Of a stretch of 64,000 nt of DNA, positions 8,787 through 53,804 are shown one piece after another. Every line of letters starts with the position of its first letter. Position 1 is the first letter of the stretch. Position numbers and translations under genes: made by a program. This stretch comes from Escherichia coli (GTDB taxonomy: Bacteria > Pseudomonadota > Gammaproteobacteria > Enterobacterales > Enterobacteriaceae). The notes below the pieces were generated by a model. That model was not told the DNA's origin. It ran no database searches and worked only from the letters and a program-made list of their open reading frames with translations. The DNA is taken from assembly GCF_024298765.1 (NCBI RefSeq), contig NZ_CP101210.1. The stretch is one strand, 5' to 3'.

Positions 8787-9638
8787 GTGTTAATTATCGA
8801 AACCCTGCCGCTGCTGCGTCAGCAAATTCGCCGCCTGCGTATGGAAGGTAAGCGCGTGGCGCTGGTGCCCACCATGGGTAACCTGCACGATGGCCATATG
8901 AAGCTGGTCGACGAAGCCAAAGCCCGCGCCGATGTGGTAGTGGTCAGTATTTTCGTTAACCCGATGCAGTTTGACCGCCCGGAAGATCTGGCACGTTATC
9001 CACGGACCTTGCAAGAGGACTGCGAAAAGCTGAACAAACGTAAAGTGGATCTAGTTTTCGCGCCTTCGGTAAAAGAGATCTACCCGAACGGTACAGAAAC
9101 CCACACCTATGTTGATGTTCCCGGTCTTTCCACCATGCTGGAAGGTGCCAGCCGTCCGGGACATTTTCGCGGCGTTTCGACTATTGTCAGCAAGCTGTTC
9201 AATCTGGTCCAGCCGGACATCGCCTGCTTCGGTGAAAAAGATTTTCAGCAACTGGCGCTGATCCGCAAAATGGTTGCTGATATGGGCTTTGATATTGAGA
9301 TTATCGGTGTGCCAATTATGCGCGCCAAAGACGGTCTGGCGCTGAGTTCCCGTAACGGTTATCTGACGGCGGAACAACGCAAAATTGCGCCCGGTCTGTA
9401 CAAAGTTTTAAGTTCAATTGCCGACAAATTGCAGGCTGGGGAACGGGATCTCGATGAAATTATTGCTATTGCCGGGCAAGAACTGAATGAAAAAGGCTTC
9501 CGCGCCGATGATATTCAGATTCGTGATGCCGACACGTTGCAGGAAGTCTCTGAAAACAGCAAACGGGCAGTGATTCTGGTAGCCGCCTGGCTTGGCGATG
9601 CTCGCCTGATCGACAACAAAATCGTCGAACTGGCGTAA
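8787..9638 (+). CDS. panC: pantoate--beta-alanine ligase
   Basis: 283-aa ORF ([18 protein letters not shown]...) with GTG start at 8787; 11-bp gap after panB. Confidence 0.95.
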
Positions 9639-9645
9639 TCCTTAT

Positions 9646-9680
9646 CTGGCGCTACGGCTGATGGCGCCAGTTATTAATTT
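9646..9680 (+). terminator. stem-loop (ctggcgc...gcgccag) followed by T-rich tract; likely panC terminator
   Basis: inverted repeat read directly from the sequence immediately after the panC stop. Confidence 0.5.
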
Positions 9681-9733
9681 ACCCCACGTCATGGCGATGA
9701 CGTCTGTAAGCGATTATTCATAACGCAGACAAC

Positions 9734-9937
9734 TTAGTTAGAGTTAATTAGCTTATCAACCTCTGTAAGAGATAAAGTTGCCATCTCTGCAACGTCTTCC
9801 CGAGACATTCCTTTACTCAGAAGACGCTGGGCCAGCCTTACCTTCCGGAGTCCCTCTTTATATCCCTTCTGAAATCCCTTCTCTTCAAACCACTGCGCCA
9901 ACGTCTGCCTGGTTTCTCTCCGTGTCTTTATTTCCAT
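9734..9937 (-). CDS. free-standing small ORF (67 aa) homologous to the C-terminal domain of RpnC/YadD; candidate RpnS-like small protein
   Basis: translation MEIKTRRETRQTLAQWFEE...LSKGMSREDVAEMATLSLTEVDKLINSN parallels the yadD C-terminus (TLAQWFEE...LSKGMSREDVAEMANLPLAEVDKLIS); AAGGGAA sits 3 nt upstream of the ATG; DNA is near-identical to the yadD 3' end at both flanks. Confidence 0.4.
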   Translation of the reverse strand: MEIKTRRETRQTLAQWFEEKGFQKGYKEGLRKVRLAQRLLSKGMSREDVAEMATLSLTEVDKLINSN

Positions 9938-10005
9938 ATGTTCCCTTAATTATCTGGTCAGTTAACAATAACAATTATCTGGCTATAACTGATAATGCAG
10001 ATAAC

Positions 10006-10206
10006 TTAGCTAATCAGCTTATCAACCTCAGCAAGAGGTAAATTTGCCATCTCTGCAACGTCTTCCCGAGACATCCCTTTACTCAGAAAACGCAGGGCGA
10101 ATTCCTGTCTTACTTCCTGTCTAACCTCTTGTATTACCTCCTGTCTTACCTCCTGCCTTTCCTCCTGTCTTCCCCTCTCTTCAAACCACTGCGCCAGCGT
10201 CATCAT
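10006..10206 (-). CDS. internal in-frame small ORF within the rpnC 3' end (66 aa, begins MMTLAQWFEE); candidate intragenic RpnS-type antitoxin
   Basis: ATGATG at 10206..10201 on the - strand, preceded by GGGAGGG with 6-nt spacing; matches the published concept of intragenic small proteins in rpn genes. Confidence 0.4.
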   Translation of the reverse strand: MMTLAQWFEERGRQEERQEVRQEVIQEVRQEVRQEFALRFLSKGMSREDVAEMANLPLAEVDKLIS

Positions 10207-34774: not shown

Positions 34775-34934
34775 GGGTTATTCCTTATCTATCTAATAAC
34801 GTTGAGTTTTCTGGAACCTGTCCCATTGAACTCTCGCCGGAAAGCTCAATAAGACAGGTTCTACGTTTAGTTGCCGCGCTTTTATATGCGCTTGATTTAC
34901 AACATCTTCTGGATAATTTTTACCAGAAAAATCA

Positions 34935-46149: not shown

Positions 46150-46356
46150 TCTGATGCGACGCTGGCCTGATAAGACGCGGGCAGCGTCGCATCAGGCATC
46201 GTGTGCAAATGTCGGATGCGGCGGGAACGCCTTATCCGACCTACAAGACCTTACATATCAACATGTTAAAATTGTAGATACTGATAAGACGCGCCAGCGT
46301 CGCATCGGGCATCTTGTGCAAATGTTGGATGCGGCATAAACGCCTATCCGACATAC
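46150..46356. repeat. cluster of about four REP units (BIME) between yacG and mutT; the last unit overlaps the mutT stop
   Basis: repeated gatgcgacgctg...cagcgtcgcatc and g(t)cggatgcggcg..aacgcctatccgacctac units read from the sequence. Confidence 0.8.
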
Positions 46357-46756: not shown

Positions 46757-46786
46757 AAAAAAGGCGCAGAATCCTGCGCCTTTTAC
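46757..46786 (-). terminator. stem-loop with U-tract downstream of secA (aaaaggcgcaggattctgcgcctttttt on the - strand)
   Basis: read directly from the sequence. Confidence 0.65.
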
Positions 46787-46801
46787 TTCAATTGTTAGCT
46801 T

Positions 46802-49507
46802 TTATTGCAGGCGACCATGGCACTGCTTGTATTTTTTACCAGAACCGCACGGGCAAGGATCATTACGTCCAACTTTGCGTTCACCGGTTTGTGCCGCCAG
46901 TGCAGCTGCGGCTGCAGAGTCGTCATCCTGATGGCTAAGCTGCTGCATTTGCGCTAAACGCTCGGCTTCCATACGACGCTGTTGTTCCAGCTCTTCAACC
47001 TCTTCAGGCATACGTACCTGGACTTTGCTCAGCGTGCTGATGACTTCATATTTCAGCGACTCCAGCATCGCTGCAAACATGGAGAACGATTCACGTTTGT
47101 ATTCCTGCTTCGGATCTTTCTGTGCATAGCCACGCAGGTGGATACCTTGACGCAGATAATCCATCGCCGCCAGGTGCTCTTTCCACAGGGAGTCAAGCGT
47201 TTGCAGCATGACGCCTTTCTCGAAGTGACGCATCATCTCAGCGCCAACCACTTCTTCTTTACGCTGATACACTTCGATGGACTGCGCCAGAATACGCTCA
47301 CGCAGCGTCTCTTCATGCAGTTCTGGCTCTTTGTCCAGCCACTCGGCAATCGGCAAATCGAGGTCGAAATCGTTCTTCAGACGTTCCTGCAGCCCCGGAA
47401 TATCCCACATTTCTTCCAGCGACTGTGGCGGAATGTAGGCATCAATGGTCGCTTTGAACACATCTTCACGAATGCTGTTGATGGTTTCACTCACATCGCT
47501 GACATCCAGCAGTTCGTTACGCTGGGAGTAAATGGCGCGACGCTGATCGTTAGCCACGTCATCATATTCCAGCAGTTGCTTACGAATGTCGAAGTTACGG
47601 CTTTCAACTTTACGCTGGGCGTTGGCAATCGCTTTGGTCACCCACGGGTGCTCGATGGCTTCGCCTGGTTTCATACCCAGTTTACGCATCATGCCGGAAA
47701 CACGGTCAGAAGCAAAAATACGCATCAGCGCATCTTCCATCGACAGGTAGAAACGTGAAGAACCGGCATCCCCCTGGCGCCCAGAACGACCGCGTAGCTG
47801 GTTATCGATACGACGAGATTCGTGACGTTCTGTACCGATGATATGCAGACCACCTGCAGCCAGTACCGCATCGTGACGCACCTGCCAGTCGGCTTTGATT
47901 TTTTCAATTTGCTCTGCGGTCGGATTTTCCAGCGCGGCAACTTCTGCCTGCCAGCTACCACCGAGCACAATATCTGTACCACGACCCGCCATGTTAGTCG
48001 CGATAGTCACCGCCGCCGGATAACCCGCTTGTGCAACAATCGCTGCTTCGTTAGCGTGGAATTTGGCGTTCAGAACGTTGTGTTTGATACCGGCTTTGGT
48101 CAGCTCGTTTGACACCAATTCCGATTTTTCGATGGAGATAGTACCCACCAGCACTGGCTGGCCCTTCGCAGTACGCTCTTTGATATCTTCGATGATCGCC
48201 TGGATTTTTTCTGCTTCAGTCATATAGACCAGATCTGGCAGATCTTTACGAATCATCGGACGGTTGGTTGGAACAACAACGGTATCCAGTTTGTAGATTG
48301 AGCTAAATTCGAAAGCTTCGGTATCAGCAGTACCGGTCATGCCCGCCAGTTTTTCATACAAACGGAAGTAGTTCTGGAAGGTGATCGACGCCAGCGTCTG
48401 GTTTTCGTTCTGGATCTGTACTCCTTCTTTCGCTTCCACTGCCTGATGCAGGCCATCGGACCAACGACGTCCCTGCATGGTACGACCGGTGTGTTCGTCA
48501 ACGATGATAACTTCACCATCTTTAACGATGTAGTCGACGTCTCGGGTAAACAGCGCATGAGCGCGCAGCGCCGCCGTTACGTGGTGCATCAGCATGATGT
48601 TGGCCGGAGAGTACAGAGACTCCCCTTCATCCATGATGCCTTCTTTCACCAGCAGTTCTTCAATCAGCACCAGACCACGTTCGGTCAGGTTCACCTGGCG
48701 AGATTTTTCGTCCACCGAGAAGTGGCCTTCGCCCTGGAAGGTTTCGGAGTCTTCTTTTTCCTGACGGATCAGGTGCGGAATAATTTTATTCACGCGTTTA
48801 TACATTTCCGAGCTGTCTTCTGCCGGGCCGGAAATGATCAGCGGTGTACGCGCTTCATCGATCAGGATGGAGTCCACTTCGTCCACCAGCGCATAGTGCA
48901 GTTTACGCTGTACACGTTCTTCAGGGCTGAACGCCATGTTATCGCGCAGGTAGTCAAAGCCGTATTCGTTGTTCGTACCGTAAGTGATGTCAGCTGCGTA
49001 AGCTTCGCGCTTTGCCGGTGCTGGCATGCCCGGCAGGTTGATGCCGACTGTCAGGCCGAGGAATTCAAACAACGGACGGTTGTTTTCGGCGTCACGTTGC
49101 GCCAGGTAATCGTTGACGGTAACAACGTGTACCCCCTTACCGGTTAATGCGTTCAGGTAAGCAGGCAGCGTTGCGGTCAGGGTTTTACCTTCACCGGTAC
49201 GCATTTCCGCGATGCAGCGTTCGTTAAGAACCATACCGCCGAGTAACTGAACGTCGAAGTGACGCATACCAAAGACGCGCTTACTTGCCTCACGCACCAC
49301 AGCGAAAGCTTCTGGGATCAGATTTTCCAGCACTTCGCCTTTTTCCAGACGTGCACGAAACTCTGCGGTTTTCCCTTTCAGTTCTTCGTCGGAGAGTTTT
49401 TCCATCTCCGGTTCCATGGCATTGATGATGTTGACGACTTTGCGCATCCGGCGCAGGGTGCGATCGTTACGACTACCGAAAACTTTAGTTAATAATTTGA
49501 TTAGCAT
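46802..49507 (-). CDS. secA: preprotein translocase ATPase SecA
   Basis: 901-aa ORF recognised as SecA, including the C-terminal zinc-binding [14 protein letters not shown]. Confidence 0.97.
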
Positions 49508-51329: not shown

Positions 51330-52481
51330 TTAATCAGCTTGCTTACGCAGGAATGCTGGGATATCCAGATAATCCGGCTCTTTCGCAGTTTGCGGTGCGT
51401 TGTCATTCACGACTTTAGCAACCGGTTTCTGCTCCTGAGTCAGCGGTGCCATCCCGTGCTGCTGGTAGCGATCCATCACTGGCTGCTGAACCTGCTTATT
51501 GGTCACCAGGGTGATTTCAGGACGTTTGTCCATACCGATACCTGTCGCAACAACGGTTACGCGCAGCTCGTCATTCATATCCGGGTCAAGAGAAGTACCG
51601 ATAACGACAGTTGCGTTGTCGGATGCAAATGCACGGATGGTGTTACCTACCGTTTCGAACTCATCCAGACGCAGGTCGAAGCCCGCCGTGATGTTAACCA
51701 GCACGCCGCGCGCGCCAGACAGATCGATATCTTCCAGCAGCGGAGAGGAGATAGCCATTTCAGCAGCTTCTTCCGCACGGTCTTCGCCGCTCGCCACACC
51801 AGAACCCATCATTGCGTAGCCCATTTCAGACATTACGGTACGTACGTCTGCAAAGTCCACGTTCATCAGGCCTGGACGAGTAATCAGTTCAGCGATACCT
51901 TGCACAGCACCTTTCAGTACATCGTTCGCTGCGCCAAATGCATCCAGCAGGGAGATACCGCGGCCCAAGACTTTCAGCAGTTTGTCGTTAGGGATAGTGA
52001 TCAGAGAGTCCACATGCTTGGACAGTTCAGTGATCCCCTGCTCAGCGAATGCCATACGCTTCTTGCCTTCAAAGTTGAAAGGCTTAGTCACGACAGCAAC
52101 GGTCAGGATCCCCAAATCTTTTGCCACTTCAGCGACAACTGGTGCTGCACCAGTACCGGTACCACCACCCATACCCGCAGCAATAAAGACCATGTCTGCA
52201 CCTTCCAGCGCCGCACGCAGTGCATCGCGATCCTCATCAGCCGCATTACGGCCAACTTCTGGATTTGCGCCAGCTCCCAGTCCTTTGGTGATACCGCTAC
52301 CGATTTGAATCGTCTGTCCAACCGCTGTTTTACGCAGCGCTTGTGCATCGGTATTTACCGCGAAGAATTCAACACCTTCAATGCGCTCGCGCACCATGTG
52401 TTCAACAGCATTACCGCCGCCGCCGCCGACGCCGATGACTTTAATCACCGCGTCATTGGTAAGTTCCATTGGTTCAAACAT
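51330..52481 (-). CDS. ftsZ: cell division GTPase FtsZ
   Basis: 383-aa ORF; tubulin signature GGGTGTG. Confidence 0.97.
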
Positions 52482-52541
52482 AGTTTCTCTCCGATTTGTG
52501 CCTGTCGCCTGAGGCCGTAATCATCGTCGGCCTCATAAAAA

Positions 52542-53804
52542 TTAAAACTCTTTTCGCAGCCAACTATTGAGTCGCTTGATCCACGAGCCAACTGATGCTG
52601 TAACACGTTTTTCTACTTCAGCTTCACCGTTAAGATGTGACTCTTTCCCATAGTGAAGCAATCCCACCGCCGTCGAATAATACGGCTCCTGAGCATAATC
52701 CGTTAAACCGGTAATGTTCAGCGGCGCGCCGATACGCACTTGCGTATGAAACACGCGCTGAGCACAGGCTGCAAGACCTTCGATCTGCGCTGCGCCACCA
52801 GTTAAAACAATGCCTGCCGCCAGGTGATGTTTAACCCCTTGTTGGCGAAGCTTTTCCTGCAACTGCAATATCTCTTCGTTGACCAGGTTGAGCAGCTCGG
52901 TATAGCGCGGCTCGATCACCTCTGCCAGGGTCTGACGTTGCAGACTCCGCGGTGGACGACCGCCTACGCTCGGCACTTCCACGCTCTCATCTTTTCCAAC
53001 GATGGAACCCAGCGCACAACCGTGGCGAACTTTAATCGCTTCGGCGTCGCTTGGCGGCGTGCCAAAGGCGTAAGCGATATCACTGGTCACGACATTGCCA
53101 GCATAAGGAATTACCTTAGTGTGGCGCAATGCCCCACCGGTATAAACGGCGATATCCATTGTACCACCACCGATATCGACGACGCAGACACCCAGTTCAC
53201 GTTCATCTTCCGTCAATACCGAATAACTTGATGCCAGTCCGGCAAATATCAGTTGGTCAACTTTCAACCCACAACGTTCAACCGCTTTGACGATGTTTTT
53301 CGCCATATCGTTGTGACATGTGATCAGGTGCACTTTTGCCTGCATCCGCACGCCCGAAAGTCCTACCGGATTCTTGATCCCTTCCTGATAGTCAATCGCA
53401 TACTCTTGCGGGATCACATGCAGCACACGATGCTCATCGCGCACACGCACCGATTTCGCGGTATGGACGACGTTTTCCACATCTTCTTGCGTCACTTCTT
53501 CTTCAGAAATAGGCACCATACCAATTTCATTCTGGCAGCTGATGTGCTTACCAGAAAGCGCCAGATATACCGAAGAGATCTGACAATCTGCCATCAATTC
53601 TGCCTGGTCAATGGCGCGTTGTACGCACTTGACCACGGATTCGAGGTCGTTCACCCCGCCTTTATCCATACCACGCGACGGGCAGCTGCCCACGCCAATG
53701 ATATTGACCATACCGTCGGGCAGAACTTCCCCTACTAAAGCGGCAACCTTCGCGGTACCAATCTCCAGTCCTACTACCAGTTTTCTGTCCGTCGCCTTGA
53801 TCAT
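52542..53804 (-). CDS. ftsA: cell division protein FtsA (actin-like ATPase)
   Basis: 420-aa ORF recognised as FtsA. Confidence 0.97.

What the first reader, a model, noticed from the sequence alone, without database searches (positions are those of the whole stretch)
9724..10206. Second, free-standing copy of the RpnC C-terminal module downstream of rpnC/yadD
Sequence shows two copies of the rpnC 3' module about 270 bp apart. Both have near-identical flanks (ttatcaacctc...ttgccatctctgcaacgtcttcccgagacat(t/c)cctttactcaga at the stop-proximal end, tctcttcaaaccactgcgcca at the other) but different central linkers: the in-gene copy carries the 12-bp tandem repeats, the downstream copy a unique linker. 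The downstream copy is its own 67-aa ORF (9734..9937, -) with an AAGGGAA ribosome-binding site. Established knowledge: Rpn (YhgA-like) proteins are PD-(D/E)XK nucleases recently described as toxic antiphage factors whose C-terminal domain is also made as an intragenic small protein that counteracts the toxin. Inference: the extra copy could be an additional antitoxin or decoy, or a silent cassette that swaps the rpnC C-terminus by homologous recombination between the conserved flanks. From memory K-12 MG1655 has only a short spacer between yadD and panC, so this may be strain-specific, but I cannot verify that here.
Basis: partly seen in the sequence, partly recalled or inferred. Interest (0 to 1): 0.6.

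Follow-up and report, generated by a model that had tools for sequence, protein, structure and literature searches.

The report
Known free-standing rpnC antitoxin-domain copy (rpnCSs)
The extra module is real, but it is rpnCSs, a small gene copied from the tail of the rpnC nuclease gene that was published in 2023 and sits in about 29% of complete E. coli genomes, so it is a known feature whose function is still untested.

Summary
Window 9720-9905 is a diverged direct copy (88% identity) of the rpnC 3' end at 9992-10201. It holds an intact 67-aa ORF (9734-9937, minus strand) with its own AAGGGAA Shine-Dalgarno and ATG, 68 nt downstream of the rpnC stop. Only the in-gene copy carries the 12-nt tandem array.

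It is not new. [quoted passage not shown] They also note that it can be lost by deletion or by fusion with the rpnC N-terminal region.

What I added:
- The module is in 1555 of 5426 complete E. coli genomes. K-12, BL21 and O157/O55:H7 lack it.
- The ORF was intact in every locus sampled, and pN/pS is about 0.4.
- The small gene has its own four-residue repeat variation (57-77 aa).
- Its linker does not co-vary with the in-gene linker: lengths were equal in 1 of 19 haplotypes.
- Mosaic alleles and one fusion allele show that the two copies recombine.

Its function is untested. It is most likely a co-expressed RpnS-type paralogue with its own pairing specificity, and also a recombination partner for the rpnC tail.

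The parts
9734..9937 (-). rpnCSs: free-standing 67-aa paralogue of the RpnC C-terminal (RpnS) domain, MEIKTRRETRQTLAQWFEEKGFQKGYKEGLRKVRLAQRLLSKGMSREDVAEMATLSLTEVDKLINSN
   Evidence: ORF list. BLASTP to RpnC 243-306 gives 58% identity, E = 2e-18. TIGR01784 positions 213-273 of 273, 35 bits. Annotated as a CDS in the 100%-identical strain 104. The AF2 model shows a long helix 7-41 plus two short helices. Published as rpnCSs.
9941..9947 (-). Shine-Dalgarno-like AAGGGAA, 3 nt upstream of the rpnCSs ATG (9937-9935)
   Evidence: Read from the sequence. Invariant in nine distinct alleles, including E. marmotae.
9938..10005 (-). 68-nt spacer between the rpnC stop and the rpnCSs start. It has no counterpart in rpnC and contains two exact CCAGATAATT direct repeats (9948-9957 and 9973-9982). 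No terminator-like site lies on the minus strand within it.
   Evidence: The spacer length was 68 nt in the two-copy loci where it could be measured, except 65 nt in L037. The query 9900-10005, which covers the spacer and the first 38 nt of the ORF, is found in 1555 of 5426 genomes and essentially only at this locus: 1558 places.
9720..9905 (-). Downstream copy of the duplicated unit (coding from TLAQWFEE to the stop, plus about 14 nt of 3' flank)
   Evidence: Local alignment; the repeat finder D2 and D3.
9992..10201 (-). In-gene copy of the duplicated unit (rpnC 3' end plus about 14 nt of 3' flank)
   Evidence: Local alignment; the repeat finder D2 and D3.
10006..10926 (-). rpnC (yadD), 306 aa, a YhgA-like PD-(D/E)XK Rpn nuclease (RpnCL)
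   Evidence: PF04754 over residues 7-207, E = 2.9e-85. TIGR01784, 271 bits. 90% identical to K-12 RpnC, with the differences concentrated in the linker.
10006..10206 (-). Predicted in-gene RpnCS ORF (66 aa, MMTLAQWFEE...) with GGGAGGG at 10213-10219 and ATGATG at 10206-10201
   Evidence: Read from the sequence. The internal start is inferred by analogy with K-12 rpnC ribosome profiling and SPA tagging (PMC10400941). It was not tested in this strain.
10103..10171 (-). 12-nt tandem array encoding the four-residue (R/I)QEV repeats of the RpnC linker helix; absent from the downstream copy
   Evidence: TRF: period 12, 5.8 copies. The repeat finder D1: 10091-10186.
9646..9670 (+). panC terminator-like hairpin, which bounds the module on the panC side

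Best explanation
The feature is rpnCSs, a free-standing small gene that arose by partial duplication of the 3' end of rpnC. It encodes a second copy of the RpnC C-terminal 'RpnS' antitoxin domain.

Shown here:
- It is a diverged paralogue of the rpnC tail, with a new 11-residue N-terminus and its own SD and ATG.
- It is an intact, conserved ORF.
- It is present in about 29% of complete E. coli genomes and in E. marmotae.
- It has its own four-residue repeat polymorphism.
- It recombines with the in-gene tail, giving mosaic alleles and a deletion-fusion allele.

Inferred:
- No terminator separates it from rpnC, so it is probably co-transcribed with rpnC and with the abundant internal rpnCS transcript, and then translated.
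- The protein is predicted as a long repeat-bearing helix followed by a small HTH-like unit, as described for RpnS. It would pair through that helix.
- Pairing specificity in this family depends on repeat number, and the rpnCSs linker does not track the resident rpnC linker. RpnCSs is therefore more likely a specificity-shifted RpnS paralogue than a simple extra dose of cognate antitoxin.
- The locus also acts as a homologous partner that can replace or remodel the rpnC tail.

My confidence in the identity is about 0.95. My confidence in the mechanistic part is about 0.4.
For: - Published description of rpnCSs downstream of rpnC in some strains, and of its loss by deletion or fusion: PMC10400941, section 7 and Fig. 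2I.
- Homology and duplication extents.
- Family assignment: TIGR01784 C-terminal positions; precomputed weak PF27070 HTH_Rpn_C hits on close variants.
- Distribution: 1555 of 5426 genomes. Variants occur in E. coli, E. marmotae and unnamed Escherichia species.
- Coding signal: the ORF is intact even where PGAP calls it a pseudogene or annotates nothing; SD, ATG and N-terminus are conserved; pN/pS is 0.40 over 34 non-linker codons, against 0.29 for the in-gene copies; length variants of 57-77 aa are all in frame.
- No co-variation: linker lengths were equal in 1 of 19 two-copy haplotypes, and the same downstream allele is paired with several in-gene repeat numbers. The window's rpnCSs allele is at 99% identity or more in 36 genomes, its in-gene tail in 63, and the combined region in only 17.
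- Recombination: fusion allele L032; swapped linker flavours in L020, L028 and L033 compared with the window.
- No terminator and no Rfam match in the spacer.
- Repeat-number specificity of RpnCS towards RpnCL: PMC10400941, Fig. 4D.
- The analogous K-12 pair rpnE/ypaA also differs by one four-residue unit, and YpaA protein was detected.
Against: - No expression data exist for rpnCSs in any strain. The paper tagged only RpnESs/YpaA.
- No sigma-70 consensus promoter was found on the minus strand.
- The local Pfam-A scan gave no DUF4351 or HTH_Rpn_C hit for this 67-aa allele.
- Foldseek and PDB sequence searches did not recover RpnA-S, 7TH0.
- The equal-repeat rule was shown for a single +1 repeat construct in K-12 RpnC and may not hold for a differently composed linker.
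- pN/pS rests on 34 codons.
- The haplotype sample comes from a tool that shows diverse neighbourhoods preferentially, so it does not give frequencies.
Confidence: 0.7

Rival explanations
1. RpnCSs is a redundant second cognate antitoxin. It binds the resident RpnCL whatever the linker length and simply raises antitoxin dosage or buffers RpnCL.
For: - It keeps the conserved TLAQWFEE segment and the C-terminal LSKGMSREDVAE...DKLI unit shared with RpnCS.
- Its position allows co-transcription with rpnC.
- The paper calls it a second copy of rpnCS.
Against: - Linker lengths match in only 1 of 19 haplotypes. In the window the linkers differ by 10 residues, which is not a multiple of four.
- One extra four-residue repeat abolished RpnCS inhibition of RpnCL (PMC10400941, Fig. 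4D).
- The downstream allele stays constant while the in-gene repeat number changes.
Confidence: 0.25
2. The module is a silent recombination cassette. The DNA matters only as a donor or partner for swapping the rpnC C-terminus, and the ORF is not expressed.
For: - Fusion allele L032.
- Mosaic C-termini and swapped linker flavours.
- No consensus promoter was found.
Against: - The start codon, SD and the unique N-terminal 11 codons are conserved between E. coli and E. marmotae.
- The ORF was intact in every sampled locus.
- pN/pS is below 1.
- The analogous YpaA/RpnESs protein is made.
Confidence: 0.1
3. The module is a neutral remnant of a partial tandem duplication with no function. It persists by hitch-hiking in some lineages and is being lost in others.
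For: - Patchy distribution at 29%.
- Loss by deletion or fusion is documented.
- Spacer divergence between E. coli and E. marmotae, about 10% read from the alignment, is not unusually low by my recollection of genome-wide divergence between the two species; that comparison was not tested here.
Against: The same points as for the silent-cassette reading. In addition, repeat-number polymorphism within rpnCSs itself is always in frame.
Confidence: 0.12

Closest known systems
rpnCSs (RpnCSs) of Zhong et al., PNAS 2023 (PMC10400941)
   Same: Same locus and arrangement: a small gene homologous to rpnCS, immediately downstream of rpnC, present in only some E. coli strains and derived from rpnC itself. 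Loss by fusion, as described in the paper, is seen here in L032.
   Different: Nothing categorical; this is one allele of that gene. The main text of the paper does not report its frequency, its own repeat polymorphism, or the lack of linker co-variation with rpnC. The supplement was not available to me.
rpnE-ypaA (RpnESs) of E. coli K-12
   Same: A free-standing copy of the Rpn C-terminal small protein sits directly downstream of its parent rpn gene. Its linker also differs from the in-gene copy, by one extra KLEG unit. The protein was detected by SPA tagging.
   Different: - ypaA is an exact tandem duplicate that keeps the parental SD and iTIS and starts 12 nt after the rpnE stop.
- rpnCSs has a 68-nt unrelated spacer, a new SD and a new 11-residue N-terminus.
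- The origins are independent, according to the paper's phylogeny.
Intragenic RpnS antitoxins (RpnAS to RpnES, RpnP2S)
   Same: Same domain: a long helix with variable four-residue repeats followed by a small helical, HTH-like unit. They act as antitoxins of PD-(D/E)XK RpnL nucleases.
   Different: Intragenic RpnS shares its DNA with RpnL, so the two must co-evolve. rpnCSs is physically uncoupled, and its linker drifts independently of RpnCL.
Stand-alone DUF4351 (PF14261) / HTH_Rpn_C (PF27070) small genes
   Same: RpnS-like proteins encoded as separate genes on chromosomes and plasmids.
   Different: This allele gave no significant hit in the local Pfam-A scan. Only weak precomputed PF27070 hits exist, and on close variants.

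Membership tests
RpnS / rpnCSs (small Rpn C-terminal-domain protein) | Sequence homology to the C-terminal domain of an Rpn (YhgA-like) protein | tested here: met
   58% identity to RpnC 243-306, E = 2e-18. TIGR01784 model positions 213-273 of 273, E = 9.8e-9.
RpnS / rpnCSs (small Rpn C-terminal-domain protein) | Separate gene immediately downstream of rpnC, between rpnC and panC, present in only some strains | tested here: met
   Present in 1555 of 5426 genomes. Absent from the K-12-type genome. Matches Fig. 2I and section 7 of PMC10400941.
RpnS / rpnCSs (small Rpn C-terminal-domain protein) | Long alpha-helix carrying a variable number of four-residue repeats, followed by a small helical (HTH-like) unit | tested here: met
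   AF2 model: helices 7-20 and 22-41, then 46-52 and 57-65; pLDDT 74 overall and 87-90 in the C-terminal half. Allelic series of 57-77 aa differing by KGFQ, KGYKEGLQ and QEVR units. This is a prediction, not a solved structure.
RpnS / rpnCSs (small Rpn C-terminal-domain protein) | Structural match to the solved RpnA-S structure (PDB 7TH0) | tested here: inconclusive
   Top Foldseek PDB hits are generic HTH proteins (TrpR, DeoR, resolvase) at E of about 1, and 7TH0 is not in the top 50. phmmer and hmmsearch against PDB sequences do not recover it.
RpnS / rpnCSs (small Rpn C-terminal-domain protein) | Pfam DUF4351 (PF14261) or HTH_Rpn_C (PF27070) match | tested here: inconclusive
   No such hit in the Pfam-A scan of the 67-aa protein. 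Precomputed weak PF27070 hits exist on variants that are 83-90% identical.
RpnS / rpnCSs (small Rpn C-terminal-domain protein) | Translated as a separate small protein | not testable with these tools
   Only indirect evidence: conserved SD and ATG, an intact ORF everywhere sampled, and pN/pS of 0.40.
RpnS / rpnCSs (small Rpn C-terminal-domain protein) | Binds RpnL and blocks its toxicity and SOS induction | not testable with these tools
   Linker-length mismatch with the resident RpnC in 18 of 19 haplotypes argues against simple cognate pairing, if the Fig. 4D rule generalises.
Rpn / YhgA-like PD-(D/E)XK nuclease (the neighbour rpnC) | Transposase_31 (PF04754) N-terminal nuclease domain | tested here: met
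   PF04754 over residues 7-207, E = 2.9e-85. TIGR01784, 271 bits against a cutoff of 52. 90% identical to K-12 RpnC.
Transposase / insertion sequence (the label PGAP gives the small ORF in many genomes) | A catalytic transposase domain | tested here: not met
   The 67-aa protein covers only the last 61 positions of TIGR01784 and has no PF04754 domain. The repeat scan of 9600-10300 found only the rpnC-tail duplication, the 12-nt array, a short 15-nt repeat and two short inverted repeats, one of which is the panC terminator stem. The paper argues that rpn genes are not transposases.
PADLOC-catalogued defence system | Match to a PADLOC-DB v2 model | tested here: not met
   No hit for either protein. 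Rpn was probably not in that 2023 release (my assumption, not checked), so this says little.

The most novel reading that the evidence does not exclude
RpnCSs, and by analogy YpaA/RpnESs, is not a spare cognate antitoxin. It is a deliberately off-register RpnS paralogue. Because it is uncoupled from the toxin gene, it keeps a different pairing specificity. It could then serve two roles: as a reservoir allele that homologous recombination moves into rpnC to re-key the toxin-antitoxin pair under phage pressure, and/or as a neutraliser or regulator of non-resident RpnC variants.
Probability: 0.3. Interest if true: 0.5.

Novelty: already known. Interest (0 to 1): 0.25.

Why it matters
Rpn systems are toxin-antitoxin antiphage modules in which the antitoxin is encoded inside the toxin gene, so the two must co-evolve. 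A second, physically uncoupled copy breaks that coupling. This makes it the natural place to ask how pairing specificity set by repeat number is diversified or policed.

The gene's existence is published, so this window adds no new kind of element. The practical value is limited to three points:
- The first-stage call is confirmed.
- PGAP labels the gene inconsistently: transposase, hypothetical protein, RpnC/YadD family protein, or a pseudogene "missing N-terminus".
- The linker-mismatch and mosaic pattern gives a testable hypothesis for the still-unknown function of RpnCSs.

Tried and rejected
- Rfam scans of the region at E up to 1 and of the whole window at gathering score found no RNA family at the locus.
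- The promoter and terminator scan found no sigma-70 consensus on the minus strand and no terminator in the spacer. A weak plus-strand promoter-like site at 9968-9996 was not pursued.
- RNA folding of 9640-10010 (-) was no better than shuffles, z = -0.13.
- PADLOC gave no hits.
- PDB sequence searches with the protein, with RpnC and with the family profile and Foldseek against the PDB did not recover RpnA-S (7TH0). Only generic HTH matches appeared.
- An exact-match scan of the GTDB species-representative genomes for a 22-nt spacer word gave one hit, a probably misbinned E. coli contig. It says nothing about other species.
- The tblastn search of plasmids hit only very large records, apparently chromosomes, or rpnC itself, so rpnCSs is a chromosomal, locus-specific gene.
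- The CCAGATAATT spacer repeat was searched across the window. It occurs exactly only at the two spacer sites, so there is no evidence for an operator elsewhere.
- I considered a fused-chain AlphaFold run to test RpnCS-RpnCSs pairing and rejected it.
- The paper's supplement was not available.

Full report
**1. What is in the window**

The region lies between panC (8787-9638, +) and panD (11200-11580, +). It contains rpnC/yadD (10006-10926, -, 306 aa) and a 67-aa ORF (9734-9937, -), both listed.
- RpnC has the YhgA-like Transposase_31 domain (PF04754, residues 7-207, E = 2.9e-85).
- It matches TIGR01784 at 271 bits.
- It is 90% identical to K-12 RpnC, with almost all differences in the C-terminal linker.

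**2. Checking the observation**

The repeat finder reports two direct-repeat blocks: 9742-9832 versus 10008-10098 (91 nt, 90%) and 9838-9905 versus 10134-10201 (68 nt, 74%). A gapped local alignment sets the duplicated unit at 9720-9905 versus 9992-10201, with 156 of 177 ungapped columns identical. It runs from the codons for TLAQWFEE, through the stop, and about 14-17 nt beyond (TAAGTTrTCTGCrTTAT).

At protein level the small ORF aligns to RpnC 243-306 at 58% identity, E = 2e-18. The two gaps lie in the linker.

The 12-nt tandem array (period 12, 5.8 copies, 10103-10171) exists only in the in-gene copy.

The small ORF has AAGGGAA at 9941-9947 (-), three bases before its ATG. That includes the recollection that K-12 has only a short spacer: a K-12-type genome has 73 nt between the panC and rpnC stops and no second copy.

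**3. It is already described**

[quoted passage not shown] Section 7 and Fig. 2I state the following:
- It groups phylogenetically with RpnCS, so it originated from rpnC.

Only the analogous RpnESs (YpaA) was shown to be made. RpnCSs was not tested for expression or function. The same paper shows that adding a single four-residue repeat to either K-12 RpnCS or RpnCLS abolishes inhibition, which returns when both carry the extra repeat (Fig. 4D). I found no later paper on rpnCSs.

**4. Distribution**

The query 9900-10005 covers the 68-nt spacer and the first 38 nt of the small ORF. It occurs in 1555 of 5426 complete E. coli genomes at 94-100% identity, essentially once per genome.
- Carriers include ST131, ST69, O145:H28 and APEC strains.
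- K-12-like, BL21 and O157/O55:H7 genomes lack it.
- Protein-database variants also come from E. marmotae and unnamed Escherichia species.
- Apparent plasmid hits are very large records, seemingly chromosomes, or rpnC itself.

PGAP labels the gene inconsistently: "transposase", "hypothetical protein", "RpnC/YadD family protein", or a pseudogene "missing N-terminus". In some genomes nothing is annotated over the queried stretch. In every such case I examined, the ORF is intact.

**5. Is it a gene or only DNA?**
- Across nine distinct alleles, including E. marmotae, the SD, the ATG and the unique N-terminal codons (MEIKTRRETRQ, or MDIK...) are nearly invariant.
- The spacer was 68 nt in the two-copy loci where it could be measured, except one with 65 nt.
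- Protein variants range from 57 to 77 aa and differ by in-frame units: KGFQ, KGYKEGLQ and (R/S)QEV.
- Over 34 non-linker codons, pN/pS is 0.40 for the downstream copies and 0.29 for the in-gene copies. The sample is small but consistent with purifying selection.
- An AF2 model built on a 27-sequence alignment gives a long helix (7-41) and two short helices (46-52, 57-65). pLDDT is 74 overall and about 88 in the C-terminal half. This fits the helix-plus-HTH description of RpnS.
- Direct matching to the solved RpnA-S structure (7TH0) failed, both by Foldseek and by sequence. I count that test as inconclusive.
- No terminator, Rfam family or unusual RNA structure lies between rpnC and the small ORF. 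Co-transcription with rpnC and with the internal rpnCS transcript is therefore a reasonable inference, but it is not shown.

**6. Relation between the two copies**

I collected 39 related loci and extracted both tails. Among 19 distinct two-copy haplotypes, the linker between WFE and LSKG had equal length in the two copies only once. In the window the linkers are 31 and 21 residues.

The same downstream allele is found next to different in-gene repeat numbers:

| Downstream linker (aa) | In-gene linkers found with it (aa) |
|---|---|
| 21 | 31, 39 |
| 25 | 31, 35, 39 |
| 23 (E. marmotae allele) | 39, 55 |
| 19 | 23, 31, 43 |

At population scale, the window's rpnCSs allele is at 99% identity or more in 36 genomes and its in-gene tail in 63. 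The combined 661-nt region reaches that level in only 17. So the in-gene array changes on a fairly stable rpnCSs background, and the two are re-assorted.

The sampling tool favours diverse neighbourhoods, so these numbers are not frequencies.

The K-12 rpnE-ypaA pair shows the same kind of offset: YpaA has one extra KLEG unit relative to RpnES.

**7. Recombination between the copies**

Linker "flavours" swap positions between strains:
- The window has (R/I)QEV repeats in-gene and KGFQ/KGYK units downstream.
- L020, L028 and L033 have KGIE repeats in-gene and an RQAVRQEVSQEF linker downstream.

C-terminal types also move. Some downstream copies carry the in-gene-type ...MANLPLAEIDK(L/M)IN end.

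L032 (CP092820.1) is a single-copy allele. In it, the rpnC N-terminal coding region continues into a tail and 3' flank that are identical to the window's downstream copy, with the spacer deleted. This is the fusion outcome described in the paper. That assembly contains ambiguous bases, so independent confirmation would be welcome.

The K-12 tail looks mosaic relative to the two window copies, but that could equally be the ancestral state. I draw no conclusion from it.

**8. Interpretation**

Identity is secure: this is an allele of rpnCSs. For function I favour a translated RpnS-type paralogue whose pairing specificity is set by its own linker, and which is usually not matched to the resident RpnCL. 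It also serves as a homologous partner that can remodel or replace the rpnC tail.

That reading depends on extending the Fig. 4D rule to differently composed linkers, and on expression that nobody has measured. The rivals cannot be excluded here, and I weight them lower for the reasons given in their entries. They are a redundant cognate antitoxin, a silent cassette, and a neutral remnant.

**9. Verdict**

The feature is real, correctly described and strain-variable, but already known. Interest is low to moderate. The open question is what RpnCSs does, and the linker-mismatch pattern makes that directly testable.

Noticed in passing
L040:12380-12930 (K-12-type rpnE-ypaA): ypaA is an exact tandem duplicate of the rpnE tail, including its AAGGAGAGATTA-ATG start region, and begins 12 nt after the rpnE stop. 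YpaA differs from in-gene RpnES by one extra four-residue unit (KLEG). The expressed K-12 analogue is therefore also off-register relative to its parent.
   Followed up: partly
window 9948-9957 and 9973-9982 (-): Two exact CCAGATAATT direct repeats, 25 nt apart, lie in the rpnC-rpnCSs spacer and flank GTTAAC. They were conserved in the nine distinct alleles aligned, including E. marmotae. No other exact copy exists in the 64-kb window. They could be a protein-binding site or promoter element; their function is unknown.
   Followed up: partly
window 9968-9996 (+): A promoter-like site on the plus strand (ATAACA-17-GATAAT, 9 of 12 matches) points into the 3' end of rpnC in antisense orientation. 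It is a consensus match only.
   Followed up: no
window 9689-9706; compare L003, L008 and others: The window, O145:H28 and PSJ-32-1 carry a 14-nt indel that creates a perfect 7-bp hairpin, ACGTCAT-cgcc-ATGACGT, between rpnCSs and the panC terminator. O55:H7 has a near-identical version with one stem mismatch. Many other carriers lack it.
   Followed up: no
L030:1300-1520 (E. coli O55:H7 DEC5E; the same match pattern in O157:H7): An insertion of about 220 nt lies between the panC stop and the terminator hairpin. From memory it resembles an ERIC/IRU element, but I did not test that. rpnC in this record is annotated as a pseudogene with an internal stop.
   Followed up: no
L031:745-1442 (strain JMF1): An IS1B element is inserted between panC and rpnC in a single-copy strain.
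   Followed up: no
L004 (GCA_974490245.1), rpnC tail: rpnC is truncated to 253 aa by a stop at the start of the repeat linker (…TLAQWFEERGR*), while the downstream rpnCSs is intact. This strain would therefore lack both the RpnCL C-terminal domain and RpnCS but keep RpnCSs.
   Followed up: no
L034 (CALXDF010000219.1, a MAG labelled uncultured Oscillospiraceae): This 4.3-kb contig carries an E. coli-type rpnC tail plus rpnCSs, with both tail proteins identical to those of E. coli strain REF2 (L035). It is almost certainly a misbinned Escherichia contig.
   Followed up: partly
E. coli genomes annotation of the small ORF: PGAP annotation of rpnCSs is inconsistent. It appears as transposase, hypothetical protein, RpnC/YadD family protein, a pseudogene 'missing N-terminus', or with nothing annotated over the queried stretch. 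The ORF is intact in all cases I inspected.
   Followed up: yes
window 52473-52562, 34777-34890, 46757-46826, 46164-46241: Rfam gathering-score hits elsewhere in the window: PssrA, tp2, STnc40 and naRNA4. None is related to the finding.
   Followed up: no
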